Assembly (NCBI GenBank): GCA_964016885.1
Contig: OZ024747.1
Location: forward strand, 93,887,929-93,951,928
Direction: 5' to 3'
From: Eledone cirrhosa
Taxonomy: Eukaryota
Length of the DNA stretch: 64,000 nucleotides
Below are positions 1 to 54,707 of this stretch, one piece after another. Made by a program: the position numbers and the translations under genes. Each line of letters starts with the position of its first letter. Position 1 is the stretch's first letter. The notes beneath the pieces are model-generated. The model ran no database searches. It was given only the letters and a program-made list of their open reading frames with translations, and was not told the DNA's origin.

Positions 1-77
1 CCAGGAAAAAAGAGTGCTCTATGTAAGCAACAGAGCTTAATTATTATTATTATGTAATAAACAACATAAGGCAATTA

Positions 78-137
78 TTCCATTTACCAGTGGTTTCTTA
101 AAAGCAAAAGGTTTTGCTTTCAATCCTCAGAATGAAA
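78..137 (-). ncRNA. Type I hammerhead ribozyme (PLE-A pseudo-LTR)
   Basis: Exact reverse complement of 3219-3278: CUGAGGA, helix II, GAAA, CC-ACU-GG, GUA cleavage triplet. Confidence 0.85.
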
Positions 138-346
138 AATCCTGGTTTGTTTATTGAATATGGATTCTAAAAACGAAAATGCAATCTATATGAAAGTGAG
201 GCTGGAAAAGGGAGAAGGAAAGGAAAAATAAAATAAAATAAAACTACACATGCAAACACACACAAAAAAACCCAAAAGCATACTTACACACACACACATA
301 TATACACATATAATTTGCACGCATACACATATACACATACACATAC

Positions 347-415
<69 letters not shown>

Positions 416-516
416 CACATACATACACATATATATATATAAAGAGCGTACACCTACACACACATACACATATATATACACACATATACACATACATATA
501 TTCATACATACACACG

Positions 517-552
<36 letters not shown>

Positions 553-574
553 TATATATACACATGTACATATC

Positions 575-620
<46 letters not shown>

Positions 621-643
621 CATATACACACATATACACATAT

Positions 644-679
<36 letters not shown>

Positions 680-1075
680 GTGTGTACAAGCCTACACATA
701 CACACACACATATATATACACACACATATACATACATTCACACAAACATACAACGTACATACATACACATACATGAATGCACTCCACTACATATTAACAC
801 ACGCAAATAAATATAAGAAAAAAATATATAAATAATATTAACAAATATTTGACAGCGATACATGCCCCAGCTAACAGGACAGACACGCGTGGTAAGTAAT
901 ACACACATAAGCGCATATACATACGTTCGAAATAGTAAACACATACACACACTCTCACACATAAATATACATATACAAATACATAAACACGTACATACAC
1001 ATACATACGCAAACACGTACACGTATACAATATAAACACACACATGTATATGTAATTATATACACACACACACAC

Positions 1076-1132
<57 letters not shown>

Positions 1133-1417
1133 CATACAAAAATATAAAAATATAAACGCACACACACATATAAATACGTAAACACACATATACATACATA
1201 GCTAAACAATTAAACACATGCAAATACGTATATATCAAAAGAACGCACAACCAAATACAAACACACACACATATATACACACACACACACCCACACACAA
1301 ACCCACACATACATAAAAATAAATAAAAACACACGCAACATATACATACATACACGTACATATACATATATACATATATACATATACATATATATATATA
1401 CACATATATATACACAA

Positions 1418-1451
<34 letters not shown>

Positions 1452-1592
1452 ACGTACACATACACACATGCATACACATACACACACACATATACATGTG
1501 TGTATGTGTAAAGCTCAGTATTAGATAAGACAAATGAACCTTACATAAACGTATATATAGTAGTAAAGTAATAAAGCCATACAAGGCAATTA

Positions 1593-1652
1593 ATCCATTC
1601 ACCAGAGGTTTCTTAAAAGCAAAAAAAGTTTCCTTCAATCTTCAGAATGAAA
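1593..1652 (-). ncRNA. Hammerhead-like motif with GUG at the cleavage triplet (PLE-A internal copy)
   Basis: Reverse complement of 6023-6082. Confidence 0.7.
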
Positions 1653-3218
1653 TATACAAATATATACACACATACAGACACGCACACACACATATATATA
1701 TATATACATATATACATATATGTACATATATATATATATATATATATACAGACATATATACATACACACATATACACACACATACATATACATACATACA
1801 TACACATATATATACATACACAAACATATACGTACACATATACATATATACACACAAAAATACATACACATACACATAGGTATGTGAAGGGCAAAACAAA
1901 AAGAATATATGGGGTGGGGGGCCTAGAGGAGGTAAAAATATAAAGGGAGGTAAGGGAGAAAAAAATATTTTTTAAATACAAGAGTACAGAAGGTAGAAGC
2001 AGCAAAATAAAAGCCGTAGCAAAAGTAAAGAGCAGAGAAGGAGTTCAAGGCGGTTGATTTATCGTAGGAGTGTCAATCCAGTTACAGATCAGATGCGATT
2101 TCAGATGAGGACAGCATCTGAAGATCTCAGTCTTAGAGTTAAGGCAAGCGGAAGTGTCTCTCAAGTTTAGCAAAATCCTATACTTTTCTGTGGTACACAA
2201 AGAACAATTCTTTGTGCCCCTTTGGTACTCCCTCGAATGGTCTAATATAGACCAATCAATAGAGTACGGGATATTACTATCCTTGAGATCCCATACCTTA
2301 CTTGCGAGGGCCGTTGATGTTCGTTTATCTGAGTGTTTAAAAGAAGCGACATGTGAGTAAAATCTGGTTTTAAACCTGTCCTGGGTCATACCGACATATC
2401 GCTCGCTTCTGGCTGGCTGGTTGTTGATAACTGGCGTTATTTTAGCCTCATAAACGACAGATTTTGTTTTACATTTACCCTGCAATGGGCATTCATCCGG
2501 CTTCCTGCAACTGCATCCTGGATTTATCCTCGTACGGTTTGAACTGGTGATTTTGGATTTCATGGATGGACAACAAGAGTAGCTGATCTTAACTACATTC
2601 CTATTAAAAATCTTATAATATCTATGAATAGGAGGAAAATGTTTGTCTAATAGTTCAAGGAATTTCCTTCCTACATTAGTTTTGACATTTAGAGAGAAGG
2701 GGGGTGTGAACCAAATAATCTTCCTTTTCCTGTTATTATGGTTAGTTTTAGGGGGGGGGAATAGGTAAATAAGAAATATTTTCTGTAAAACCGCTGTTCT
2801 TAAGGGCTTTATTATAATAAGGGGCGGCTTTATTAAAAATGTCTATAGACGAAGATAAAGTAGAAATCCTACGGCTAATGTTAGGAATAAGATTATTAAA
2901 AACTATAGGGGGATGGCAAGACTCTTTGTGTATATACCTAAGATTTTCATTAGGTTTATGATAGGGTTTAAAAGAGGCAGTAAGTAGATCAAGATTAATA
3001 TCAAGAAAGTTAGCATTAGTAAGGTTCGTATCTATAGTAATTTTAAGGTTAAGATTAGCAAAGGTACTAATTAAATCTTTACGGAATTTTTTGTGTGTGT
3101 TTGCATGTGTAGTTTTATTTTATTTTATTTTTCCTTTCCTTCTCCCTTTTCCAGCCTCACTTTCATATAGATTGCATTTTCGTTTTTAGAATCCATATTC
3201 AATAAACAAACCAGGATT

Positions 3219-3278
3219 TTTCATTCTGAGGATTGAAAGCAAAACCTTTTGCTTTTAAGAAACCACTGGTAAATGGAA
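3219..3278 (+). ncRNA. Type I hammerhead ribozyme; predicted cleavage after 3271
   Basis: tttcatt-CTGAGGA(3226)-ttgaaagcaaaa/cc/ttttgcttttaa-GAAA(3259)-ccactg-GTA-aatggaa. All core nucleotides are present and helices I-III can pair. Confidence 0.87.
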
Positions 3279-3497
3279 TAATTGCCTTATGTTGTTTATT
3301 ACATAATAATAATAATTAAGCTCTGTTGCTTACATAGAGCACTCTTTTTTCCTGGACTTTTCCGATGGAATTACTTCATTTATACAGCTCCAACCGGGAT
3401 TGATCGCAGCATATTCGATATTACATATACGATTGGCACTTTCCAGCCCGATTAGTTGAGCACTCTACAGTTTTCAGGAATTTAACCAACATACACC

Positions 3498-5630
3498 ATG
3501 GACCTTTATGATTTGGATTATTCTATCAAAAACATACCCACTCCTTCCAACACAACATACACCAAAATCCTCATTGATAAAATCGAGCAAGTCGTTAAAA
3601 GAATGAGATGGAAGGCAATGGTTTACGATGGACTATTCAGTGCTGATACTAAAGATAATTTTGACATTAAATCCCGTAAATATCCACCTAGAATTAAAGA
3701 CATGGCCAACTTCGAATTAGACCTCGTTAATCTAATTAGTGATATCAAATTTCGTAAGTACAATAATAATTTTCAAACTAAACTTTCTCACGATATCTCT
3801 AATTTTAGAAATTCTACAAACACTTTTGTTCTTTCTGATAAAACCAAAAACCTCTTTGAAGTTAATAGTAATTTGTATAACCAACTTTTAACTAATAGTA
3901 TTACCAATAAATATCAATTAACTAATAATAATAGCTACAATACTATCAATAAAGAAGCTAAAGAACTAGCTAGTTCTTTACAAATAGATAACCGGATTGA
4001 AAGCTTAGCTAAGCGTAAAGAATATATTACCCTTAAAGACCATAAATTGGACTTTACTAATCGACCTAGTTGTAGACTGATTAACCCGGCTAAATCCGAG
4101 GTTGGCCTTGCTAGTAAGAAAATCTTAAGAAAAATAATTATCCAAATTAGAACTAACACTGTCCTTTCACAGTGGCTAAATACTTCCTCTGTTATTTCTT
4201 GGTTCAATAATATACAAGGTAAAAATAAGTGTAGATTTACGCAATTTGATATTGTCGATTTTTACCCTTCTATTACCGTTTCCTTATTAACTAAAGCCTT
4301 AGATTTTGCAAGACCCTTCATTAATATCTCCAAATTAGAAGAGGACATTATCTTTCATGCCAGAAAAACTTTACTTTTTACTAATGATAAGATTTGGGTT
4401 AAAAAGTCAAACCCTGAAAACTCTTTCGATGTTGCAATGGGTTCTTATGACAGTGCGGATGTGTGCGACTTAGTAGGATTATTCCTTCTCCACACACTCA
4501 AAGAGAAATTTCCGTCCCATAATATCGGTTTATACCGTGATGACGGATTAGCAGTTTCTCATACCACCAATGGCCATAATCTTGATAAATTCCGTAAAGA
4601 TTTAATTAGTACCTTTGCTAATCTTAACCTTAAAATTACTATAGATACGAACCTTACTAATGCTAACTTTCTTGATATTAATCTTGATCTACTTACTGCC
4701 TCTTTTAAACCCTATCATAAACCTAATGAAAATCTTAGGTATATACACAAAGAGTCTTGCCATCCCCCTATAGTTTTTAATAATCTTATTCCTAACATTA
4801 GCCGTAGGATTTCTACTTTATCTTCGTCTATAGACATTTTTAATAAAGCCGCCCCTTATTATAATAAAGCCCTTAAGAACAGCGGTTTTACAGAAAATAT
4901 TTCTTATTTACCTATTCCCCCCCCTAAAACTAACCATAATAACAGGAAAAGGAAGATTATTTGGTTCACACCCCCCTTCTCTCTAAATGTCAAAACTAAT
5001 GTAGGAAGGAAATTCCTTGAACTATTAGACAAACATTTTCCTCCTATTCATAGATATTATAAGATTTTTAATAGGAATGTAGTTAAGATCAGCTACTCTT
5101 GTTGTCCATCCATGAAATCCAAAATCACCAGTTCAAACCGTACGAGGATAAATCCAGGATGCAGTTGCAGGAAGCCGGATGAATGCCCATTGCAGGGTAA
5201 ATGTAAAACAAAATCTGTCGTTTATGAGGCTAAAATAACGCCAGTTATCAACAACCAGCCAGCCAGAAGCGAGCGATATGTCGGTATGACCCAGGACAGG
5301 TTTAAAACCAGATTTTACTCACATGTCGCTTCTTTTAAACACTCAGATAAACGAACATCAACGGCCCTCGCAAGTAAGGTATGGGATCTCAAGGATAGTA
5401 ATATCCCGTACTCTATTGATTGGTCTATATTAGACCATTCGAGGGAGTACCAAAGGGGCACAAAGAATTGTTCTTTGTGTACCACAGAAAAGTATAGGAT
5501 TTTGCTAAACTTGAGAGACACTTCCGCTTGCCTTAACTCTAAGACTGAGATCTTCAGATGCTGTCCTCATCTGAAATCGCATCTGATCTGTAACTGGATT
5601 GACACTCCTACGATAAATCAACCGCCTTGA
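3498..5630 (+). CDS. PLE reverse transcriptase plus C-terminal GIY-YIG endonuclease, 710 aa, uninterrupted (probably Hydra clade)
   Basis: RT motifs FDIVDFYPSI, MGSYDSA, GLYRDD and FLDINL; linker CSCRKPDECPLQGKC; endonuclease VVY...YVG, RFYSH, CSLCTTEK...LN...CCPH. The clade assignment is an inference from the motif pattern. Confidence 0.95.
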   Translation: MDLYDLDYSIKNIPTPSNTTYTKILIDKIEQVVKRMRWKAMVYDGLFSADTKDNFDIKSRKYPPRIKDMANFELDLVNLISDIKFRKYNNNFQTKLSHDISNFRNSTNTFVLSDKTKNLFEVNSNLYNQLLTNSITNKYQLTNNNSYNTINKEAKELASSLQIDNRIESLAKRKEYITLKDHKLDFTNRPSCRLINPAKSEVGLASKKILRKIIIQIRTNTVLSQWLNTSSVISWFNNIQGKNKCRFTQFDIVDFYPSITVSLLTKALDFARPFINISKLEEDIIFHARKTLLFTNDKIWVKKSNPENSFDVAMGSYDSADVCDLVGLFLLHTLKEKFPSHNIGLYRDDGLAVSHTTNGHNLDKFRKDLISTFANLNLKITIDTNLTNANFLDINLDLLTASFKPYHKPNENLRYIHKESCHPPIVFNNLIPNISRRISTLSSSIDIFNKAAPYYNKALKNSGFTENISYLPIPPPKTNHNNRKRKIIWFTPPFSLNVKTNVGRKFLELLDKHFPPIHRYYKIFNRNVVKISYSCCPSMKSKITSSNRTRINPGCSCRKPDECPLQGKCKTKSVVYEAKITPVINNQPARSERYVGMTQDRFKTRFYSHVASFKHSDKRTSTALASKVWDLKDSNIPYSIDWSILDHSREYQRGTKNCSLCTTEKYRILLNLRDTSACLNSKTEIFRCCPHLKSHLICNWIDTPTINQPP

Positions 5631-6022: not shown

Positions 6023-6082
6023 TTTCATTCTGAAGATTGAAGGAAACTTTTTTTGCTTTTAAGAAACCTCTGGTGAATGGAT
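6023..6082 (+). ncRNA. Hammerhead-like motif with non-canonical GUG cleavage triplet
   Basis: CTGAAGA(6030)...GAAA(6063)cctctg-GTG-aatgga; a paralogue of the pseudo-LTR hammerhead. Confidence 0.7.
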
Positions 6083-6223
6083 TAATTGCCTTGTATGGCT
6101 TTATTACTTTACTACTATATATACGTTTATGTAAGGTTCATTTGTCTTATCTAATACTGAGCTTTACACATACACACATGTATATGTGTGTGTGTATGTG
6201 TATGCATGTGTGTATGTGTACGT

Positions 6224-6255
<32 letters not shown>

Positions 6256-6540
6256 TTGTGTATATATATGTGTATATATATATATGTATATGTATATATG
6301 TATATATGTATATGTACGTGTATGTATGTATATGTTGCGTGTGTTTTTATTTATTTTTATGTATGTGTGGGTTTGTGTGTGGGTGTGTGTGTGTGTATAT
6401 ATGTGTGTGTGTTTGTATTTGGTTGTGCGTTCTTTTGATATATACGTATTTGCATGTGTATAATTGTTTAGCTATGTATGTATATGTGTGTTTACGTATT
6501 TATATGTGTGTGTGCGTTTATATTTTTATATTTTTGTATG

Positions 6541-6601
<61 letters not shown>

Positions 6602-6997
6602 GTGTGTGTGTGTGTATATAATTACATATACATGTGTGTGTTTATATTGTATACGTGTACGTGTTTGCGTATGTATGTGTATGTACGTGTTTATGTATTT
6701 GTATATGTATATTTATGTGTGAGAGTGTGTGTATGTGTTTACTATTTCGAACGTATGTATATGCGCTTATGTGTGTATTACTTACCACGCGTGTCTGTCC
6801 TGTTAGCTGGGGCATGTATCGCTGTCAAATATTTGTTAATATTATTTATATATTTTTTTCTTATATTTATTTGCGTGTGTTAATATGTAGTGGAGTGCAT
6901 TCATGTATGTGTATGTATGTACGTTGTATGTTTGTGTGAATGTATGTATATGTGTGTGTATATATATGTGTGTGTGTATGTGTAGGCTTGTACACAC

Positions 6998-7033
<36 letters not shown>

Positions 7034-7056
7034 ATATGTGTATATGTGTGTATATG

Positions 7057-7104
<48 letters not shown>

Positions 7105-7126
7105 GATATGTACATGTGTATATATA

Positions 7127-7162
<36 letters not shown>

Positions 7163-7263
7163 CGTGTGTATGTATGAATATATGTATGTGTATATGTGTG
7201 TATATATATGTGTATGTGTGTGTAGGTGTACGCTCTTTATATATATATATGTGTATGTATGTG

Positions 7264-7318
<55 letters not shown>

Positions 7319-7527
7319 GTATGTGTATGTGTATATGTGTATGCGTGCAAATTATATGTGTATATATGTGTGTGTGTGTAAGTATGCTTTTGGGTTTTTT
7401 TGTGTGTGTTTGCATGTGTAGTTTTATTTTATTTTATTTTTCCTTTCCTTCTCCCTTTTCCAGCCTCACTTTCATATAGATTGCATTTTCGTTTTTAGAA
7501 TCCATATTCAATAAACAAACCAGGATT

Positions 7528-7587
7528 TTTCATTCTGAGGATTGAAAGCAAAACCTTTTGCTTTTAAGAAACCACTGGTAAATGGAA
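7528..7587 (+). ncRNA. Type I hammerhead ribozyme (3' pseudo-LTR); predicted cleavage after 7580
   Basis: Identical to 3219-3278. Confidence 0.87.
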
Positions 7588-7636
7588 TAATTGCCTTATG
7601 TTGTTTATTACATAATAATAATATATATATATATAT

Positions 7637-8888
7637 ACGAAAAAGTGAGTCCTTCATCAGTGACCCTCCAACCGTCCTGGGCATTTCATCGCTTTAAGGG
7701 CCATATGCCTCGGGTTGGTGCGAACAACGGCTAAAAAAAGTCGTTGGGACACGTAAATAAAGGGGGACGCCAGAGTAACAACAAACAAGTTTTAGCAACG
7801 GAAAGTGAGTAGAAATAGACAAGTTCCAGATCTCTATGAATATAAACTCTGTGAAATCGTGAACAAGAGACAAAAGACCATCAAACCTGGTTGAAATGTG
7901 AGCAAGGAAAGAATTTCGCCCAAGTTTGACGGGGGGGAAAAAGAGAGAGAGAAAAAGGAGAGAAGAGGAAGAGGAAGAAGAAGAAGAAGAAGAAGAAGAA
8001 GAAGAAGAAGAAGAAGAAGAAGAAGAAGATAAAGGGGTCTGTTCTACGAATTCAGTAAACGTAAGTTTTGTGAAGTCGCAGACGAAAGAGAGAGAGAAAA
8101 AAATTTCATACCAGCTTGGTCAAGACCGCGCGAGAAAAGAATTACACACAGGTCAAACTTGAAGGAGGAGGAGGAAAGAGGAGGAGGAGAGGTAGTGACA
8201 GAGAATGAGTGAGTGAAAGTTGAGGAGGAGGCTAACAGAGAGAGAGACTGCTAGAAAGGGTAAAGATACAAACGAAACACGAATGGCAGCATGGAAAAAA
8301 TATATGTGTAAATATGATAATAATGGAGCTGCGGCGTTGCAAATGGGATACATATGAAAAAGTGAGTCCTTCATCAGTGACCCTCCAACCGTCCTGGGCA
8401 TTTCATCGCTTTGAGGGCCATATGCCTCGGGTTGGTGCGAACAACGGCTAAAAAAAGTCGTTGGGACACGTAAATAAAGGGGGACGCCAGAGTAACAACA
8501 AAAAAGTTTTAGCAACGGAAAGTGAGTAGAAATAGACAAGTCCCAGATCTCTATGAATATAAACTCTGTGAAATCGTGAACAAGAGACAAAAGACCATCA
8601 AACCTGGTTGAAATGTGAGCAAGGAAAGAATTTCGCCCAAGTTTGACGGGGGGGAAAAAAGAGAGAGAGAAAAAGGAGAGAAGAGGAAGAAGAAGAAGAA
8701 GAAAAAGAAGAAGAAGAAGAAGAAGAAGAAGAAGAAGAAGAAGAAGAAGAAGAAGAAGAAGAAGAAGAAGAAGAAGATAAAGGGGTCTGTTCTACGAATT
8801 CAGTAAACGTAAGTTTTGTCACTGATGAAGGACTCACTTTTTCATATGTATCCCATTTGCAACGCCGCAGCTCCATTATTATCATATT

Positions 8889-8892
<4 letters not shown>
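7637..8892 (-). mobile_element. Non-coding partial-tandem element (717-bp monomer) with short inverted arm; putative non-autonomous PLE-mobilised element
   Basis: 7639-8072 is repeated at 8356-8819, and 8818-8892 is the reverse complement of ~8307-8381. Both ends lie in (TA)n, and there is an internal (GAA)n. Confidence 0.6.
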
Positions 8893-8928
<36 letters not shown>

Positions 8929-8951
8929 CACATATATATAAAACATACACT

Positions 8952-9019
<68 letters not shown>

Positions 9020-9473
9020 CACACACATGTATACATATATATATATATATTCACATATATACATACATATATATACATTTGTGTACAAGCATACACATAC
9101 ACAAACATAGCCATACACACACACATATACATACATACATTCACACAATCATACATATATACATACGTACATACATACACATACATAAATGCACTCCTCT
9201 ACATATTCACACACGCAAATAAATATTAAAAAAAAAAATATATATATTAAAAATTTTTGACACCGTTACATAAGGCAGCTAACTGGACAGACACGCGTGG
9301 TAAGTAATACACACAAATGCACGTATACATACGTACGAAATCGTAAACACATACACACACTCTCACACATAAATATACATATACAAATACATAAACACAT
9401 ACATACACATACATGCACAAACACGCACACGTATACAATATATACACACACATATATGTATATGTAACTATAT

Positions 9474-9526
<53 letters not shown>

Positions 9527-9790
9527 CACATACATATGCATACACATACACACACACATACATGTGTGTATGTGTAAAACTCAGTCTTAGATAATTCATA
9601 TGAACCTTACATATACGTATATATAGTAGTAAAGTAATAAAGCAACATAAGGCAATTATTCCATTCACCAGTGGTTTCTTAAAAGCAAAAAATTTTTCCT
9701 TCAATCTTCAGAATGAAAAAAACCTGGTTTATCCACATATACATACATATACACACACAAATATATACATATATATACACACATACACAT

Positions 9791-9823
<33 letters not shown>

Positions 9824-11055
9824 CATACATATATATATATATATATACACACAAATATACATACACATACACATAGGTATGTGAAGGGCATGGCAAAAAG
9901 AATATATGGGGGGGGGGGGAGACATAAGAAAAGGTAAAATATAAGGGGAGGTAAGGGAGAAAAAAAAAAAAAGTAAATATATAAGAGTACAGAACGTAGA
10001 ATCAGCAAAATAAAAACCGTAGCAGAAGTAAAGAGCAGAAAAGGAGTTCAAGGCGGTTGATTTATCATAGGAGTGTCAATCCAGTTACAGATCAGATGCG
10101 ATTTCAGATGAGGACAGCATCTGAAGATCTCAGTCTTTGAGTTAAGGCAAGCGGAAGTGGCTCTCAAGTTTAGCAAAATCCTATACTTTTCTGTGGTACA
10201 CAAAGAACAATTCTTAGTGCCCCTTTGGTACTCCCTCGAATGGTCTAATATAGACCAATCAATAGAGTACGGGATGTTACTATCCTTGAGTTCCCACACC
10301 TTACTTGCGAGGGCCGTTGATGTTCGTTTATCGGAGTGCTTAAAAGAAGCGACATGTGAGTAAAATCTGGTTTTAAACCTGTCCTGGGTCATACCGACAT
10401 ATCGCTCACTCCTGGCTGGCTGGTTGTTGATTACTGGTGTTATCTTAGCCTCATAAACGACAGATTTGGTGTTATATTTACCCTGCAATGGGCATTCATC
10501 CGGCTTCCTGCAACTGCATCCTGGATTTATTCTCGTACGGTTTGAACTGGTGATTTTGAACTTCATAGATGGGCAACAAGAGTAGCTGATCTTAACTACG
10601 TTCCTATTAAATATCTTATAATATCTATGATTAGGAGGAAAATGTTTGTCTAATAGTTCAAGGAATTTCCTTCCTACATTAGTTTTGACAGTTAGAGAGA
10701 AGGGGTGTGTGAACCAAATAATCTTCCTTTTCCTGTTATTGTGGTTAGTTTTAGGGGGGGGGGGAGTAGGTAAATAAGAAATTTTTTCTGTAAAACCGCT
10801 GTTCTTAAGGGCTTTATTATAATAAGGGGCGGCTTTATTAAAAATGTCTATAGACGAAAATAAGGTAGAAATCCTACGGCTAATGTTAGGAATAAGATTA
10901 TTAAAAACTATAGGGGATGGCAAGACTCTTTGTGTATATACCTAAGATTTTCATTAGGTTTATGATAGGGTTTAAAAGAGGCAGTAAGTAGATCAAGATT
11001 AATATCAAGAAAGTTAGCATTAGAAAGGTTCGTATCTATAGTAATTTTAAGGTTA
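8893..11055 (-). mobile_element. PLE family A, diverged 5'-truncated copy (frameshift near 10915)
   Basis: ORFs 10048-10923 and 10908-11055 match the C-terminal half of the 710-aa protein with scattered substitutions. The 3' UTR carries a GUG-type hammerhead at 9658-9717. Confidence 0.92.
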
Positions 11056-11366: not shown

Positions 11367-11432
11367 TATTTTATCTGATGAAAGCGCACCATAGTTTGCT
11401 CTGGTGGCCCTTGAAATATGTATAATGAAATA
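11367..11432 (+). ncRNA. Hammerhead ribozyme in a solo PLE-B-related pseudo-LTR (~11310-11475)
   Basis: tattttat-CTGATGA(11375)-helix II-GAAA(11413)-tatgtATA-atgaaata. Confidence 0.75.
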
Positions 11433-13974: not shown

Positions 13975-14930
<956 letters not shown>

Positions 14931-32439: not shown

Positions 32440-32504
32440 TATTTTATCTGATGAAAGCGCACCATCATTTGCTTTAGTGTCCTTGAAATATGTATAATGA
32501 AATA
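32440..32504 (+). ncRNA. Hammerhead in a solo PLE-B-related pseudo-LTR
   Basis: CTGATGA(32448)...GAAA(32485)tatgtATA-atgaaata; homologous to 11367-11432. Confidence 0.72.
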
Positions 32505-36342: not shown

Positions 36343-39300
36343 GCTCAAGTATTAATGTAAGGGAGATATATAGAGAGATATAGAGAGATATAGAGAGAGA
36401 AAAAATTTAAAAATAGCCAGACATATTCGAGGCGTAGAAAACCCTATGTTTTAATGTATTAGTATTTATAAAACTTACACTATATTGTAAATATCAGTAT
36501 TCCTGAATGAAACAAGTATTCACAATGCGTGAAAATTCATTATCTTATGTTTAGTTTTTTAAAAAATTCATATGTCTATTTGAATTCAACTGATTCACTC
36601 CGCAAATTCAAAGTTACCGGAAAACATTCTCAATGTGGTATAAAAATTTGAGCGTATTATTATTCTTGCGATTACTCTACAAGATTATCTATCAAGCAGA
36701 AATAGAGAGCAGATTTCAATATACTAATCGAAAATATATATTATATTATAAGCAGAGATAACAATAATAATGATAATAAGTAAAAATATATAAAAATATA
36801 AAAATATAGAATAGAAAACTAAAAAAGAATATTACGAAAGAATATTACATAATAAAAATATTGCATATTAAAAATACTACGTATTAAAAATATTACGTAT
36901 TAAAACTTTACATATAAAAAAATATTAAAAATAAAAATTTACATATAAAAATATTAAAAATAAAAATAAAATAAAATAAAAAATAAAAATATTATAGAAT
37001 ACTACAATACTAAAAGAATAAAAATAAAAATAAAAATAAAAATAAAAATAAAAATAAAAATAAAAATAAAAATAAAAATAAAAATAAAAATAAAAATAAA
37101 AATAAAAATAAAAATAAAAATAAAAATGAAAATAAAAATAAACCACAAAGAACAACCCTTCAAAGTTAATTGACAATATATTGCCAAGTTCACTACAAGA
37201 CAAAGCCAAAAATTATCTATCAAATCACGTCTAGCAAGGAATATCGCAAAAAAGATTATGATGTCCAATAATGTCTACATATGTTCCTATATTTAATATA
37301 TAAGTTTATAAAGTGTAAGGTTAATTCAAAAAATTTGGAGCATCGGCTTTTAGGGTAGCTTAATTTTTCATGAGGAATGTTTAGATAAAAATAAAAATAA
37401 AAATAAAAATAAAAATAAATAAAATAAAATAAACAATAAAAAGAGTAAAAAGAGGGAATCAAAGATTTAGGAATCAAAAGATTTATCGGCTAGTTCTCAT
37501 ATAAATATAAATCAAACTAAATATACTACATTTTAAATTTAAATTTATATTTAAACGTTGAGTTTAATCTATGTTTGCAACAACTGAATAAATTTGTCCG
37601 TAGGTTAAGGGAATTTTTAGATTTTAGTATAAAGAATATCTCCTCTGCGCAGAGGTCACATGTCTCAGAGGATGAATTAAAAGGAATCCCTCTTGAGACT
37701 ATATTCCAAGCCGTCGAATATCTAACGTTATCTAGCTTAAGTTGCCAGAGTACACCTGATAGTGCCGTTGAAGATTTTTTATTTGGATCTGTGAAAGAAT
37801 TCTTGTGGTTATTATAGCGAAGTTTAAATTCCGTCGATGTGGAACCGACGTAGTTAAAAGAATTAGAGTCAGTATTAACATTACAATTGTATACTATATT
37901 TTTAACTAAGCAGTTGTTATTTAACGGACATTTAGATCTATCTCTACAGTTACATTTGTTAACTTGTATATTATTTATGCTATTATCAGTAGGTTTTAAG
38001 TTCCTATTATTTATTCTATTAATATTTTGTGCTAAATTTTTGGTGGATGAGTAGGTTAATTTAATTGTATGCCTATTGAAGATTGAGTGGTACCTATGTG
38101 TTCTAGGGAAGCGATTATCAAGAGCTTTGAAAAATAATTTAGCGATGTGGGTTTTAATGTTTAGTGAGAAAATCTAAAAATTCCCTTAACCTACGGACAA
38201 ATTTATTCAGTTGTTGCAAACATAGATTAAACTCAACGTTTAAATATAAATTTAACTTTAAAATGTAGTATATTTAGTTTGATTTATATTTATATGAGAA
38301 CTAGCCGATAAATCTTTTGATTCCTAAATCTTTGATTCCCTCTTTTTACTCTTTTTATTGTTTATTTTATTTTATTTATTTTTATTTTTATTTTTATTTT
38401 TATTTTTATCTAAACATTCCTCATGAAAAATTAAGCTACCCTAAAAGCCGATGCTCCAAATTTTTTGAATTAACCTTACACTTGATAAACTTATATATTA
38501 AATATAGGAACATATGTAGACATTATTGGACATCATAATCTTTTTTGCGATATTCCTTGCTAGATGTGATTTGATAGATAATTTTTGGCTTTGTCTTGTA
38601 GTGAACTTGGCAATATATTGTCAATTAACTTTGAAGGGTTGTTCTTTGTGGTTTATTTTTATTTTCATTTTTATTTTTATTTTTATTTTTATTTTTATTT
38701 TTATTTTTATTTTTATTCTTTTAGTATTGTAGTATTCTATAATATTTTTATATTTTTATTTTTTATTTTATTTTATTTTTATTTTTAATATTTTTATATG
38801 TAAATTTTTATTTTTAATATTTTTTTATATGTAAAGTTTTAATACGTAATATTTTTAATACGTAGTATTTTTAATATGCAATATTTTTATTATGTAATAT
38901 TCTTTCGTAATATTCTTTTTTAGTTTTCTATTCTATATTTTTATATTTTTATATATTTTTACTTATTATCATTATTATTGTTATCTCTGCTTATAATATA
39001 ATATATATTTTCGATTAGTATATTGAAATCTGCTCTCTATTTCTGCTTGATAGATAATCTTGTAGAGTAATCGCAAGAATAATAATACGCTCAAATTTTT
39101 ATACCACATTGAGAATGTTTTCCGGTAACTTTGAATTTGCGGAGTGAATCAGTTGAATTCACATAGACATATGAATTTTTTAAAAAACTAAACATAAGAT
39201 AATGAATTTTCACGCATTGTGAATACTTGTTTCATTCAGGAATACTGATATTTACAATATAGTGTAAGTTTTATAAATACTAATACATTAAAACATAGGG

Positions 39301-41283: not shown

Positions 41284-41349
41284 TATTTTATTATACATAT
41301 TTCAAGGGCTACCAAGGCAAATTATGGTGTGCTTTCATCAGATAAAATA
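41284..41349 (-). ncRNA. Hammerhead in a solo PLE-B-related pseudo-LTR
   Basis: Minus strand tattttat-CTGATGA-...-GAAA-tatgtATA-ataaaata, with a perfect 8-bp helix I. Confidence 0.75.
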
Positions 41350-46858: not shown

Positions 46859-48307
46859 TAGCTTGATATAGCTAACTATTATTCTTCTATTACCCCTAGT
46901 CTACTAAATAAGGCACTAAATTACGCATTCAAACATACGGACCTAACTAGCAAAGAAATGCATATTATATTATCGGCTAGGAAAACTTTGATAGAATTTG
47001 ATGACAAATTATGGACCAGAGCAGATAGAGATAGCAATTTTGACATAACTATGGGATCTTCCGACTCAGCTCAAGTAACTGACCTTGTGGGCTTATTTTT
47101 AATCAATTCGCTACATAGGAAAATACCTGGTACTACCGGAGGTTTATATAGGGATGACATGCTTTTACTTATTAATAATAATAACCCTGAACTAAATAGA
47201 AAATGTAAACAAATTACAAAATTTTTTAATTACTTTAACCTTAAAATAGAAATTGAGAACAACCATAGAATAGTCAATTTCCTAGATATAACATTAAATC
47301 TCAACACATGTCTCCACTATCCTTTTCACAAGTTGAATGAAAACTTAAACTATGTCAACTTTAACTCTAACCACCCCAGATCTGTCAAAAACACTATAGT
47401 AAACTCAGTCCAAAAACGTATCTCTAGGATCTCGTCGAATAGAAAGATTTTTGACGAAAAGGCCCAATACTATAATGATGCACTAGCTAGGGCAGGGTAT
47501 GCTGATAAGATTGTGTACATAGATAATGATAAACAAACTAAACAAAGTAACAACTTTTTTAATTATGGCAACAACATTAACAACTATAATAGAAAGCATT
47601 ACAATAATTCCAAAGGACAAAAAAGAAATAGAACTAGGAACATAATTTGGTTTGCCCCCCCTTTCTCACTAAACATTAAAACCCACATCGCTAAATTATT
47701 TTTCAAAGCTCTTGATAATCGCTTCCCTAGAACACATAGGTACCACTCAATCTTCAATAGGCATACAATTAAATTAACCTACTCATCCACCAAAAATTTA
47801 GCACAAAATATTAATAGAATAAATAATAGGAACTTAAAACCTACTGATAATAGCATAAATAATATACAAGTTAACAAATGTAACTGTAGAGATAGATCTA
47901 AATGTCCGTTAAATAACAACTGCTTAGTTAAAAATATAGTATACAATTGTAATGTTAATACTGACTCTAATTCTTTTAACTACGTCGGTTCCACATCGAC
48001 GGAATTTAAACTTCGCTATAATAACCACAAGAATTCTTTCACAGATCCAAATAAAAAATCTTCAACGGCACTATCAGGTGTACTCTGGCAACTTAAGCTA
48101 GATAACGTTAGATATTCGACGGCTTGGAATATAGTCTCAAGAGGGATTCCTTTTAATTCATCCTCTGAGACATGTGACCTCTGCGCAGAGGAGATATTCT
48201 TTATACTAAAATCTAAAAATTCCCTTAACCTACGGACAAATTTATTCAGTTGTTGCAAACATAGATTAAACTCAACGTTTAAATATAAATTTAAATTTAA
48301 AATGTAG
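46859..48307 (+). CDS. PLE-B RT plus GIY-YIG, 5'-truncated at RT motif A
   Basis: LDIANYYSSIT, MGSSDSA, GLYRDD, FLDITL, CNCRDRSKCPLNNNC, IVY..YVG, CDLC, CCKH; same clade as ORF 3498. Confidence 0.9.
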
Positions 48308-50875: not shown

Positions 50876-53800
50876 TAATGCCGAAATTTTCTGCAAAAAT
50901 TGACGAAATTTTCGGTAAAAAATGACGAAATATTCGGGAAAAAACGATGAATTTTCGGCAAAAATTAACGAAATTTTAGGAAAAAAATGAGGAAATTTTC
51001 CAAAAAAATGACGAAATTTTCGGGGAAAAATTAGGAAATTTTCGGAGATATTGACCAAATTTTCGGCAAAAATTGACGGAGTTTTCGGGAAAAAATGCCG
51101 AAATGTTCAGAATAAATTGATAAATTTTTCGGCAAAAATTGATGAAATTTTCGACAAAAATTGACGAAATTTTCGGGGAAAAATGCCGAAATTTTCGGCA
51201 AAAATTGACGAAATTTTCGGGAAAAAATGATGAAATTTTCGGCAAAAATTGACGAAATTTTCGGCAAAAAATGACGAAATTTTCGAGAAAAAATAACGAA
51301 ATTTTCGGGACAAAATTACGAAATTTTCGGGAAAATATGAGGAAATTTTCCGCAAAAATTGACGAAATTTTTGGGAAAAAATGACAAAAATTTCGAGAAA
51401 AAATGATGGAATTTTCAACAAATTTTAGAGAAAAAATGATGAAATTTTCGACAAATTTTCGACAAATTTTTTCCTGAAAATCTCAGCATTTTTTCCCGAA
51501 AATTTCGGCATTTTTTCGCGAAAATTTCGTCAGTTTTTTCAGAAGATTTCGTCATCTTTCCCCGAAAATTTCTTTTTTTTCCCCGAAAATTTAGTCACTC
51601 TTTCTCGAATATTTTGTAAGTTTTTATCGAAAAAATGACGGGAAAAAATGCCAAAATTTTTGGCAAAAATTGACGAAATATTCGGGAAAAAATGCCGAAA
51701 TTTTCTGCAAAAATTGACGAAATTTTCGGGAAAAAATGACGAAATTTTCGGGAAAAAATGACGAAATTTTCGGGAAAAAATGATGAAATTTTCAGGAAAA
51801 AATGACGAAATTTTCTGGAAAAAATGACGCAATTCTCTGCAAAAATTGACGAAATTTTCGGGAAAAAATGACGAAATTTTCGGCAAAAATTGACGAAATA
51901 TTCCGCAAAAATTGACGAAATTTTTGGGGAAAAATGACGAAAATTTTCGAGAAAAAATGATGAAATTTTCGACAAAAATTGACGAAATTTTCGATAAAAA
52001 ATTACGAAATATTCGGGAAAAAGTGACTAAATTTTCGTGAAAAAATGCCGAAATTATCGGGGAAAAATGACGAAATTTTCGGAAAAAACTGAAGAAATTT
52101 TCTGGAAAAATTGACGAAATTTTCGGCATTAATTGACGAAATTTTTGGGAAAAATTGACGAAATTTTCGCGAAAAAATCCCGAAATTTTCGGGGAAAAAT
52201 GCCGAGATTTTACTTGAAAAATGACGAAATTTTTGGCAAAAAATGACGAAATTTTCGCGAAAAGATGCCGAAATTTTCAGCAAAAATTTACGAAATTTTC
52301 GGGAAAAATTGACAAAATTTTCGGCAAAATATGACGAAATTTTCGGCAAAAATTGACGAAATTTTCGGGAAAAAATTGACGAAATTTTCGGCAAAAATTG
52401 ACGAAATTTTCGGGAAATAATGCCGAAATTTTCGGCAAAAAATGACGAAATTTTCAGGAAAAATTGACGCAATTTTCGGGAAAAAATTGACGAAATTTTC
52501 GGCAAAAATTGACGAAATTTTCGGGAAAAAATGACTAAATTTTCGGGAAAAAATGAGGAAATTTTCGGCAAAAATTGACGAAATTTTCTAGAAAAAATGA
52601 GGAAATTTTCGGCAAAAATTGACGAAATTTTCTAGAAAAAATGAGGAAATTTTAGGGAAAATAGGAGGAAATTTTCGGCAAGAATTGATGAAATTTTTGG
52701 CTAAAATTGACGAAATTTTCGGGAAAAAATGACGAATTTTCGTCATTTTTTGCGGAAAATTTCGTCAATTTTTGTAGAAAATTTTGGCATTTTTTCCCGA
52801 AAATTTCGTCAATTTTTGCCGAAAATTTCGTCATTTTTCCCCCAAAATTTCGGCATATTTTGCCGAAACTTTCGGAATTTTTGACGAAAATTTCGGAATT
52901 TTTGAGAGAAAATTTAGTCACTTTTTCCCGAATATTTCGTAAATTTTTATCGAAAATTTCGTCAATTTTTGTCACAAATTTCATCATTTTTTCAATTCTT
53001 GCCGATATTTCATCAATTCTTGCCGAAAATTCATCAATTCTTGCCGAAAATTTCCCCCTATTTTCCCGAAAATTCGTAGATCTGTCCCAAAAATTTCGTC
53101 ATTTTTTCTCGAAAATTTGTCAGTTTTTCCCGAGAATTTCGGAATTTTAGCCCTAAAATTCCGTCTTTTTTTCCCGAAAACTTCGTTAATTTTTGCAGAA
53201 AATTTCGTCATTTTTTCCCGAAAATTTTGTCATTTTCCCCCGAAAATTTCGTCATTTTTTCCCGAAATTTCGTCCATTTTTGCCGAAAATTTCGGCATTT
53301 TTTCTCGAAAATTTCGTCAATTTTTTCCGAAAATTTCGGCATTTTTTCCCGAAAATTTCGTCATTTTTTCCCCAAATTTCGTCAGTTTTTGTCGAAAATT
53401 TCATCAAATTTTGCCCGAAAATTTCGTCAATTTTTGCCGAAAGTTTCGTCATTTTTGGCCGAAAATTTCATCATTTTTTGCCGAAGATTTCGTCATTTTT
53501 TCCCGAAAATTTCGGCATTTTTTCCCGAAAATTTGGGCATTTTTCCCCGAAAATTTCGTCAATTTATCCCCAAAATTTCGTCAATATTTGCCAAAAATTT
53601 CATTATTTTTCCCCGAAAATTTCGTCAATTTTTTCCAGAAAATTTCGTCCATTTTTTCCGGAAATTTCGGCATTTTTTCGCGAAAATTTCGTCAATTTTT
53701 CCCGAAAATTTCGGCATTTTTTCCCGAAAATTTCGTCATTTTTTCCCCCAATTTCGTCAGTTTTTGTCGAAAATTTCATCAAATTTTGCCCGAAAATTTC

Positions 53801-54456
53801 GTCAATTTTTGCCGAAAATTTCGTTACTTTTTGCCGAAAATTTCATCATTTTTTGCCGAAGATTTCGTCATTTTTTCCCGAAAATTTCGGCATCTTTTCG
53901 CAAAAATTTGGGCAATTTTTCCCGAAAATTTCGTCAATTTATCCCCAAAATTTCGTCATGTTTTGCCCAAAATTTGTTTATTTTTCCCCGAAAATTTCGT
54001 CCATTTTTTCCGGAAATCTCGGCATTTTTTCGCGAAAATTTTGTCAATTTTTACCGAAAATTTAGGCATTTTTCCCCGAAAATTTCGTCATTTTTTCCCC
54101 AAATTTCGTCAGTTTTTGTCGAAAATTTCATCAAATTTTACCCGAAAATTTGGTCAATTTTGCCGAAAATTTCGTCATTTTTTACCGAAAATTTCATCAT
54201 TTTTTGCCGAAAATTTCGGCATTTTTTCCCGAAAATTTGGGCATTTTTTCCCGAAAATTTCGTCAATTTATCCTCAAAATTTCGTCATGTTTTGCCAAAA
54301 ATTTCATTATTTTTCCCAGAAAATTTCGGCATTTTTTCCCGAAAATTTCGTCATTTTTTGCCGAAAATTTCGTCAATTTTTGCCGAAAATTTCGTCAATT
54401 TTTGCCGGAAATTTCATCACTTTTCCCCGAAAATTTCGGCATTTTATCCCGAAAAA
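50876..54456. repeat. Degenerate ~22-23-bp satellite (gacgaaattttcggcaaaaatt) with internal inversions
   Basis: Orientation flips near 51465, 51630 and 52735. Confidence 0.92.
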
Positions 54457-54707
54457 AAACGGACCGCCCCATAAAAAAACGTGGCACCCAAATAAAAAAC
54501 GGACCCCCCATAAAATAACGAGGCACCCAAATAAAAAACGGGGCACCCAAATAAAAACGGAACCCCCCATAAAAAACGGGGCACCCCATAAAAATACGGG
54601 ACACCAAATAAAAAACGCCCCCCGCATAAAATAACGGGGCACGCAATAAAAAACGGGGAACCCAAATAAAAAACGGACCCCTCCATAAAAAAAACGGGGC
54701 ACCCAAA
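54452..54707. repeat. ~21-bp minisatellite (aaaaaacggggcacccaaat)
   Basis: ~12 degenerate units between the two large satellites. Confidence 0.85.

What the first reader, a model, noticed from the sequence alone, without database searches (positions are those of the whole stretch)
6023..7587. Paired cleavable (GUA) and non-cleavable (GUG) hammerheads in one 3' UTR: a possible asymmetric dimeric ribozyme
Seen: the 3' UTR is two diverged modules, each a microsatellite tract plus a hammerhead. The first has GUG at the cleavage triplet in all three copies (6073, ~1600 and the diverged copy at ~9666) yet keeps CUGAAGA, GAAA and helix I. Helix III is weak in the monomer, but ACCA-C-UGGU is self-complementary. 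Known: NUH excludes G at position 17, and hammerheads with weak palindromic helix III work as dimers. Inference: the GUG copy could be a helper that completes the fold so that only the terminal site is cut, with the low-complexity spacer as a flexible linker.
Basis: partly seen in the sequence, partly recalled or inferred. Interest (0 to 1): 0.75.

Follow-up and report, generated by a model that had tools for sequence, protein, structure and literature searches.

The report
Captured, silenced hammerhead in a retrotransposon
A jumping gene in this animal genome carries a second copy of its own predicted self-cutting RNA, which appeared in one lineage and soon changed the letter at its cut site; it was likely captured by self-insertion and likely switched off, and whether it still helps its partner cut is untested.

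Summary
The motifs lie in a young, high-copy Penelope-like retrotransposon with Hydra-clade motifs. The GUG motif is family-wide: 533 GUG versus 3,408 GUH pattern matches. Its history is readable. Of 43 older ORF ends, 42 have no internal motif. A roughly 105-nt copy of the element's own 3' end then appears in the UTR with GUA (17 of 18 such A17 motifs are internal). G17 became fixed soon after (0.013 versus 0.18 substitutions/site since). Since then its tail drifted neutrally (9/44 sites). Its core stayed intact (0/11), and its stems and loop III lost three pairings (3/50; terminal motif 0/51; about 10 expected). One loss broke the ACCACUGGU palindrome in the 6073 copy itself. So it was not built as a helper: ancestors spread without it, the spacer predates it, and G17 need not be uncleavable. 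Best reading (0.5): a captured duplicate, likely silenced, slowly decaying. Residual constraint (P about 0.01-0.2) keeps a helper role (0.2) or slow-cutter/protein-dock role (0.2) open. No cleavage or RNA data exist. Word and sequence look-ups found no earlier scan note on it.

The parts
3087..3314 (+). 5' pseudo-LTR, 100% identical to 7396-7623
   Evidence: blastn
3219..3278 (+). GUA type I hammerhead in the 5' pLTR (A17 = 3271), identical to the terminal one
3498..5630 (+). 710-aa ORF: RT motifs FTQFDI (247) and YRDD (346), C-terminal GIY-YIG-like VVY...YVG (574-596), RWK, DKT and CxCX5C motifs of Hydra-clade PLEs
   Evidence: motif definitions from PMC8557442 section 11
6023..6082 (+). Internal hammerhead-like motif: CUGAAGA, helix II cut to about 7 bp plus a weak extension, GAAA, ACCUCUGGU, G17 = 6075; predicted C3-G17 pair P = 0.985
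6083..6110 (+). Decayed copy of the element's 3' tail; end of the captured ~105-nt piece
6111..7395 (+). TA/TG-rich spacer with unique islands that are already present in single-hammerhead ancestors
7528..7587 (+). Terminal GUA type I hammerhead (A17 = 7580), helix II 11-12 bp, ACCACUGGU palindrome
7588..7615 (+). 3' tail that ends the insertion before (TA)n; 0 trunk changes in 28 sites
1..3089 (-). Inverted, 5'-truncated twin of the same insertion (continues 30 nt left of the window), with GUG motif 1593-1652 and GUA motif 78-137
8883..11055 (-). Older copy (ORF 96% identical) with GUG motif 9659-9718 and an intact ACCACUGGU; breaks off before its terminal motif

Best explanation
The internal motif is a ~105-nt copy of the element's own 3' end that appeared in the 3' UTR of one lineage, likely by self-insertion, and A17G likely switched off cutting there, leaving a self-closed copy that is now probably decaying slowly. 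SHOWN: the order of events (no internal motif, then internal GUA, then GUG), the junctions, and the pattern of later change. INFERRED: a cut in mid-UTR would separate the ORF from the terminal tail where reverse transcription probably starts, or would split a unit-length RNA, so G17 was favoured. G17 is predicted to pair with C3 and close the motif on itself. The newest changes (N7 to A, loop III A to U) are predicted to add an AGA/UCU pairing that locks the core further. The intact core then reflects short time (about 2 changes expected in 11 sites), weak leftover constraint, or short-tract exchange with the terminal motif.
For: Older ORF ends: 42 of 43 lack the internal motif and carry a different, ancestral AT-rich stretch at that place. 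A tree built without the internal columns puts 0 of 13 motif-less copies inside the motif-bearing clade (support 97). The captured piece starts about 20 nt before helix I and ends at the element's own 3' end plus (TA)n, as genomic insertions do. Of 18 A17/U7/AAGG motifs, 17 are internal, and 13 have a terminal GUA motif downstream. Trunk length from capture to G17 is 0.013, and 0.182 since. After G17: internal flank+tail 9/44 changes (8.5 expected) versus terminal 0/39 (Fisher P = 0.002); all three changes in internal stems or loop III remove a pairing. Predicted cost of reaching the hammerhead fold rises from 1.7 (A17) to 5.2-7.5 kcal/mol, while the terminal motif stays at about 2 in unmutated copies. 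No internal-type 5' half joined to the 5'-UTR sequence (0 of 4 pattern hits) and no terminal-type 5' half joined to the spacer (0 of 3), so no genomic trace of cut-and-ligate at the internal site. In an anole PLE, RT starts internally on unprocessed RNA and hammerhead cleavage was not needed in vitro (PMC11167929).
Against: The internal core has 0 of 11 trunk changes, and core+stems+loop III 3 of 50 against 9.7 expected (P = 0.013 at d = 0.19; P = 0.20 at the lower bound d = 0.11; P = 0.07 if N7 is counted). Two trunk changes fall on N7, the one free core position, which is what hammerhead-type constraint looks like. The same N7 U-to-G change occurs in both motifs at almost the same node. GUA+GUA elements did transpose whole (13 dispersed copies), so G17 was not strictly required. 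The 'G17 came early' argument is post hoc, since the finding was picked for its G17. All folding energies are nearest-neighbour predictions without tertiary contacts or protein.
Confidence: 0.5

Rival explanations
1. Asymmetric double hammerhead: the internal motif lends its CUGANGA-helix II-GAAA strand to cut the terminal (or 5' pLTR) GUA site, and G17 keeps its own site uncut.
For: Core intact on the trunk, with changes concentrated at N7. Helix III is weak in the GUA monomer (pair probability 0.12). Predicted heterodimer gain was -5.5, -3.6 and -5.0 kcal/mol at three earlier G17 stages versus -4.6 to -5.6 for the homodimer (one further copy with private mutations gave -1.7). The folded spacer leaves a 25-nt exterior path, so the motifs can be close. 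Dimer-dependent PLE hammerheads are known (PMC4209133).
Against: Ancestors spread with one hammerhead per unit. An identical GUA partner exists in the 5' pLTR and in tandem copies. Loop III A-to-U, shared by the newest clade (21 of the 79 copies under the G17 node), puts a U-U mismatch in exactly the helix III of the proposed active core, with no compensating change in the terminal motif. Predicted gain drops to -1.5 kcal/mol in the window's subfamily. A helix II C-G pair was also lost. The internal motif is made first and is predicted to close on itself through C3-G17 (P = 0.985). Spacer length is not conserved (679-5,288 nt, n = 78).
Confidence: 0.2
2. The internal motif keeps a job of its own: a slow, attenuated cutter, or an extra docking fold for the element's RT-endonuclease, which would explain a kept core and lost tail constraint.
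For: G17 variants of tertiary-stabilised hammerheads cleave 8- to 100-fold slower rather than not at all (PMC3884650). An anole PLE hammerhead cleaved only in the presence of the element's protein (PMC11167929). Constraint is intermediate and covers both strands.
Against: No conserved loop I/loop II contact was identified; loop II is the most variable part (52 terminal-branch changes in 8 sites). No genomic chimera points to cutting at the internal site. Copies ending at the internal tail number 0 of 93 for G17 and 1 of 21 for A17 after two misclassified terminal motifs were removed (not significant).
Confidence: 0.2
3. Pure hitch-hiking: A17G was a chance change in the master copy and nothing about the internal motif, G17 included, was ever selected.
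For: The whole 59-nt body has 9 trunk changes against 11.4 expected (P = 0.30). One single copy in a GUA side branch also has G17 (L194). GUA+GUA elements transposed.
Against: G is the one letter that breaks the NUH rule, and it was fixed within the first ~7% of the trunk since capture. Changes avoid the core and proximal stems.
Confidence: 0.1

Closest known systems
Hydra clade of Penelope-like elements (Craig et al. 2021, PMC8557442; passages, section 11 and supplementary table rows read; the table lists Hydra-1_Obim, 2,507 bp)
   Same: Single ORF with RT and C-terminal GIY-YIG; RWK, DKT, CxCX5C, CxxC and CxH motifs; (TA)n ends; hammerhead in the pLTR; inverted 5'-truncated twin.
   Different: Unit about 4.3 kb with a 2-kb microsatellite UTR. 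It carries a second, internal G17 hammerhead copy that the parts read do not mention. No sequence comparison with Hydra-1_Obim was made.
PLE type I hammerheads proposed or shown to work as dimers (Cervera and de la Pena 2014, PMC4209133, parts 1-2 of 4 read; Lunse et al., RNA Biol 14:1499, not held, title and citing passages only via PMC6765202 and PMC6466107)
   Same: Type I topology, long helix II, short helix III with a palindromic loop, more than one motif per transcript.
   Different: The partners described in the parts read are equivalent copies in the two pLTRs. Here a third, unequal copy sits inside the UTR with G17, and helix II starts with U-A rather than the conserved G10.1-C11.1.
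Engineered G17 hammerheads (Kalweit and Hammann 2013, PMC3884650; parts 1-2 of 5 and passages read)
   Same: G at position 17, with the C3-G17 trap as the proposed inhibition.
   Different: Those were lab mutants of tertiary-stabilised ribozymes; natural G17 motifs are mentioned only as unpublished. Here G17 is fixed in a transposon lineage with over 500 genomic copies.
PAc Poseidon PLE of Anolis (Frangieh et al. 2024, PMC11167929; parts 1-2 of 4 read)
   Same: Copies end at fixed sites downstream of the hammerhead, so the template was intact across the cleavage site.
   Different: Different clade; one hammerhead, overlapping the ORF start; tested in vitro, which this element is not.

Membership tests
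Hydra-clade Penelope-like element | Single ORF, RT followed by C-terminal GIY-YIG endonuclease | tested here: met
   FTQFDI 247, YRDD 346, VVY...YVG 574-596. Pfam gave no hit at E<=0.1, so this rests on motifs.
Hydra-clade Penelope-like element | RWK motif; DKG changed to DKT; N-terminal GxKF/Y not conserved | tested here: met
   RWK at 37, DKT at 114; the only GxKF is at 503
Hydra-clade Penelope-like element | CxCX5C linker, no CX2-5CxxC, CxxC and CxH around the EN end | tested here: met
   CSCRKPDEC 555, CSLC 658, CPH 689; no CX2-5CxxC match
Hydra-clade Penelope-like element | pLTR, inverted twin, (TA)n at ends | tested here: met
Hydra-clade Penelope-like element | Generally shorter than 3 kb | tested here: not met
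   Unit about 4.3 kb (GUA motifs at 3226 and 7535); the excess is UTR. The paper says 'generally'.
Hydra-clade Penelope-like element | RT phylogeny groups with Hydra families | not tested
Type I hammerhead ribozyme | CUGANGA and GAAA core with helices I-III | tested here: met
   Both motifs; 6 in window versus 0 in 100 shuffles
Type I hammerhead ribozyme | NUH cleavage triplet | tested here: not met
   Met by the terminal motif (GUA); not met by the internal motif (GUG)
Type I hammerhead ribozyme | G10.1-C11.1 pair closing helix II (conserved in PLE hammerheads per PMC4209133) | tested here: not met
   U-A in both motifs; some older copies have C or A at 10.1
Type I hammerhead ribozyme | Rfam hammerhead model match | tested here: inconclusive
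   None among the 150 of 171 matches listed at E<=1
Type I hammerhead ribozyme | Self-cleavage 3' of N17 | not testable with these tools
   Needs an in vitro assay or raw RNA reads
Double (dimeric) hammerhead | Unstable monomer helix III | tested here: met
   Predicted pair probability 0.12 (terminal), 0.07 (internal, window), 0.55 (9666 copy)
Double (dimeric) hammerhead | Palindromic helix III/loop III in both partners | tested here: not met
   Window internal motif is ACCUCUGGU; duplex -7.0 versus -8.2 kcal/mol. Met in older subfamilies.
Double (dimeric) hammerhead | Two motifs on one strand of one transcript | tested here: met
   Same strand, 1,505 nt apart; co-transcription itself is not shown
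Double (dimeric) hammerhead | Cleavage depends on the partner | not testable with these tools
   Needs the assay under the next steps

The most novel reading that the evidence does not exclude
A retrotransposon captured a copy of its own ribozyme and within a short time turned it into a natural one-way enzyme strand: the G17 copy cuts the GUA site in a strand-swapped double hammerhead while staying uncut. Because each stage (single, GUA+GUA, GUG+GUA) survives as genomic copies, the origin of an asymmetric ribozyme pair could be replayed in vitro.
Probability: 0.2. Interest if true: 0.75.

Novelty: new variant of a known kind. Interest (0 to 1): 0.42.

Why it matters
What hammerheads do in Penelope-like elements is still open: cut the precursor, make circles, or nothing essential. 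This family offers a natural experiment, with ordered genomic stages carrying one GUA motif, two GUA motifs, and GUG plus GUA. If G17 was selected to block a mid-UTR cut, that is indirect evidence that these hammerheads cut in vivo and that cutting in the wrong place is costly. The terminal motif's 0 changes in 51 structural and 39 flanking sites already show strong selection on it. It is also a natural, lineage-fixed G17 hammerhead; my four searches bearing on this returned no published case, only a mention of unpublished ones in PMC3884650. If the helper reading held, it would be a natural asymmetric ribozyme pair.

Tried and rejected
1. ADAR editing as the source of A17G (lead from note e1-8671701). 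Terminal-type motifs with non-A17 number 22 (11 G, 4 C, 7 T) against about 3,400 with A, and A>G is not in excess on internal branches (16 versus 69 T>C). Rejected. 2. Genomic traces of cut-and-ligate at the internal site. The first pattern had too narrow a gap (0 hits). The corrected one gave 4 hits, all terminal-type point mutants. The reverse chimera gave 3 hits: two chance flanks and one ordinary internal copy. 3. Internal tail as an RT start: 1 of 21 A17 versus 0 of 93 G17 after removing two misclassified motifs; the script's printed P = 0.007 includes them and is not valid. 4. RNA evidence: no RNA holder listed. Contigs of four runs of unrecorded kind (one study) hold the internal motif but cannot show ends or cleavage. 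5. Generality: in a second hammerhead family of this genome, 84 non-A17 matches are a mix of G, C and T over several sequence backgrounds, with no sign of a fixed G17 lineage; their contexts were not examined. 6. The tally used too loose a marker and misclassed some copies; one search replaces it. 7. Rfam and Pfam gave nothing useful. 8. An alternative helix I register (GGUGAA with UUCAUU) was considered by eye; it leaves no U16.1 or helix III and was dropped. 9. The Lunse et al. paper could not be read; its variants or supplements may include G17 or unequal pairs.

Full report
1. THE ELEMENT. [quoted passage not shown] Pfam gave no hit. A 228-nt pseudo-LTR (3087-3314 = 7396-7623) flanks it, and an inverted, 5'-truncated twin at 99.2% identity runs from 3089 to 30 nt left of the window. 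An older copy (ORF 96%) lies at 8883-11055 on the minus strand. The family is young and abundant: 46 of 47 listed matches to the terminal motif and 40 of 40 to the internal motif were 100% identical (only the best 40 candidates are scored).

2. THE OBSERVATION. A scan with position 17 left free finds GUA motifs at 3226, 7535 and 130(-), and GUG motifs at 6030, 1645(-) and 9711(-). A strict version finds 6 in the window and 0 in each of 100 shuffles. Corrections: the 6073 and 1600 motifs read ACCUCUGGU, so the palindrome is broken. The 1600 motif belongs to the twin and is not independent. The two UTR halves share only the hammerhead and tail (88 nt, 83%) apart from a low-complexity alignment. 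Both motifs close helix II with U-A, not the G-C that PMC4209133 reports as conserved.

3. GENOME-WIDE. Exact patterns give 533 GUG and 3,408 GUH matches, with controls at 0. With the core left free (566 matches), 96 of the first 100 listed have an intact core, and the four changes are singletons. That is expected of young copies and says little about selection. In 40 loci picked on diverged GUG motifs, the GUG-then-GUA order recurs across subfamilies of 91-98% ORF identity.

4. ORIGIN. To avoid choosing on the motif, I anchored on the ORF end (834 matches, first 100 listed) and fetched 60 loci: the older-type hits, the younger ones not yet held, and five of the youngest. Of 43 older-type ORF ends, 42 have no internal motif (alignment score about 0.1 of maximum; 31 with the UTR continuing, 11 broken) and one has it with A17. 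Of 20 younger-type ends, 16 have it with G17, one is ancestral, two are interrupted and one is deleted. In the copy with A17 (L113) the motif begins about 20 nt before helix I and ends at the element's own 3' end followed by (TA)n. It replaces about 60 nt of AT-rich UTR seen in its motif-less relatives. This is the form of a 5'-truncated insertion, so nested self-insertion is the likely origin (inference). A pattern for the oldest internal type gave 56 matches, 18 with A17 and 38 with G17. All 18 A17 loci were examined: 17 are internal, 16 continue into the UTR, and 13 have a terminal GUA motif within 5.5 kb. The spacer islands are present in single-motif ancestors, so the spacer was not built as a linker.

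5. ORDER AND TEMPO. A tree of 107 copies (one per locus, chosen from 164 extracted; inverted twins, duplicated loci, short copies and 21 of the 30 youngest loci left out) was built without the internal columns. It orders the stages as none, A17, G17/U7, G17/G7, G17/A7, loop III U, with support 97 for the motif-bearing clade and 90 for the G17 clade. Trunk length is 0.013 from capture to G17 and 0.182 since. One G17 singleton (L194) sits in an A17 side branch.

6. CONSTRAINT SINCE G17. Trunk changes by parsimony: internal core 0/11; core+stems+loop III 3/50; N7 2; loop II 4/8; flank+tail 9/44 (two of these come from a small deletion). Terminal core+stems 0/51; flank+tail 0/39; N7 1. Neutral yardsticks are ORF four-fold sites 17/100 (JC 0.19) and UTR islands 0.26/site. 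The terminal motif is clearly constrained (P = 0.0001). The internal tail is neutral. The internal body is intermediate: P = 0.013 at d = 0.19, 0.20 at d = 0.11, 0.07 with N7, and 0.30 for the whole 59 nt; Fisher P = 0.036 against its own flanks. All three structural changes remove a pairing (helix II C-G, loop III palindrome, last pair of helix I). Two points favour lasting function: changes pile on N7, and U7G occurs in both motifs at nearly the same node, which could be co-evolution or short-tract exchange. The finding was chosen because its core is intact, which biases toward apparent constraint.

7. FOLDING (ViennaRNA, no tertiary terms). The internal monomer is predicted to pair C3 with G17 (P = 0.985) and, in this subfamily, AGA with loop III UCU. 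The cost of the hammerhead fold is 1.7 kcal/mol at the A17 stage and 5.2-7.5 after, versus 1.7-2.2 for the unmutated terminal motif. Double-hammerhead gain over the two monomers is -5.6, -5.5, -3.6, -5.0 and -1.5 along the lineage, versus -4.6 to -5.6 for GUA:GUA (one of ten copies, L143, carries private mutations and gave -1.7 and +1.2). The spacer is predicted 77% paired with a 25-nt exterior path: not a flexible linker, though it would not keep the motifs apart.

8. LITERATURE. Dimeric PLE hammerheads are known and cleave poorly in vitro (PMC4209133, parts 1-2 read; review passages in PMC6765202 and PMC6466107). G17 slows four tertiary-stabilised hammerheads 8- to 100-fold without abolishing cleavage, and natural G17 motifs are mentioned as unpublished (PMC3884650). 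In an anole PLE, RT starts internally on unprocessed RNA, the hammerhead needs the protein, and cleavage is not required in vitro (PMC11167929). Here too, copies run past the terminal cleavage site, so the template was uncut or re-ligated there. That makes 'cut only the terminal site' useful only if unit RNAs circularise (inference). Searches returned no report of an unequal GUG/GUA pair in a PLE; the Lunse et al. paper and its supplements could not be seen. bioRxiv 10.64898/2026.07.22.740005 (part 1 of 5 read) did not bear on the question.

9. VERDICT. A real, family-wide feature with a recoverable history: capture of the element's own 3' end, early A17G, then slow erosion. Most likely a silenced duplicate (0.5); helper 0.2; slow cutter or protein dock 0.2; pure drift 0.1. 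New variant of a known kind; interest 0.42, carried mainly by the ready-made series of natural stages that makes PLE hammerhead function testable.

Noticed in passing
window 11367-11432 (+), 32440-32504 (+), 41284-41349 (-): A second type I hammerhead family (CUGAUGA ... GAAA UAUGUA UA, 8-bp helix I, AU-rich palindromic helix III). Its non-A17 variants number 84 genome-wide and are mixed G/C/T.
   Followed up: partly
window 46862-48307 (+) and 37526-38173 (-): A second PLE-like ORF fragment with a CxCX5C motif, 41% identical to the main ORF, with an inverted partial copy about 9 kb away.
   Followed up: partly
window 7631-8899: An unrelated repeat right after the element: two tandem ~700-nt copies (92%) with (GAA)n tracts and an 82-nt inverted end; the minus strand has a CUGAUGA box with an upstream GAAA, possibly a permuted hammerhead.
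   Followed up: no
L096:5277-6339: Four short tandem repeats of the pLTR-hammerhead unit about 300-400 nt apart, retrozyme-like.
   Followed up: no
L123 (minus strand, about 1,000 nt after the ORF end): An independent short inverted hammerhead-tail insertion inside the UTR of a single-motif copy, showing that nested self-insertion recurs.
   Followed up: partly
family-wide; window 7615 and 3386 equivalents: Copies end at two preferred places, about 35 and about 110-115 nt past the cleavage site (82 versus 73 terminal motifs without or with the further 5'-UTR piece), like the two RT start sites of the anole PLE.
   Followed up: partly
L102, about 7.6 kb after the ORF end: A related hammerhead with a fully changed but still paired helix II and ACCACUUGU at helix III, probably a sister family.
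   Followed up: no
window 14205-14755: 84-nt tandem array encoding C2H2 zinc fingers (HTGDKPY linkers).
   Followed up: no
window 50976-54634: Long degenerate repeat that gives open frames of 150-560 codons on both strands.
   Followed up: no
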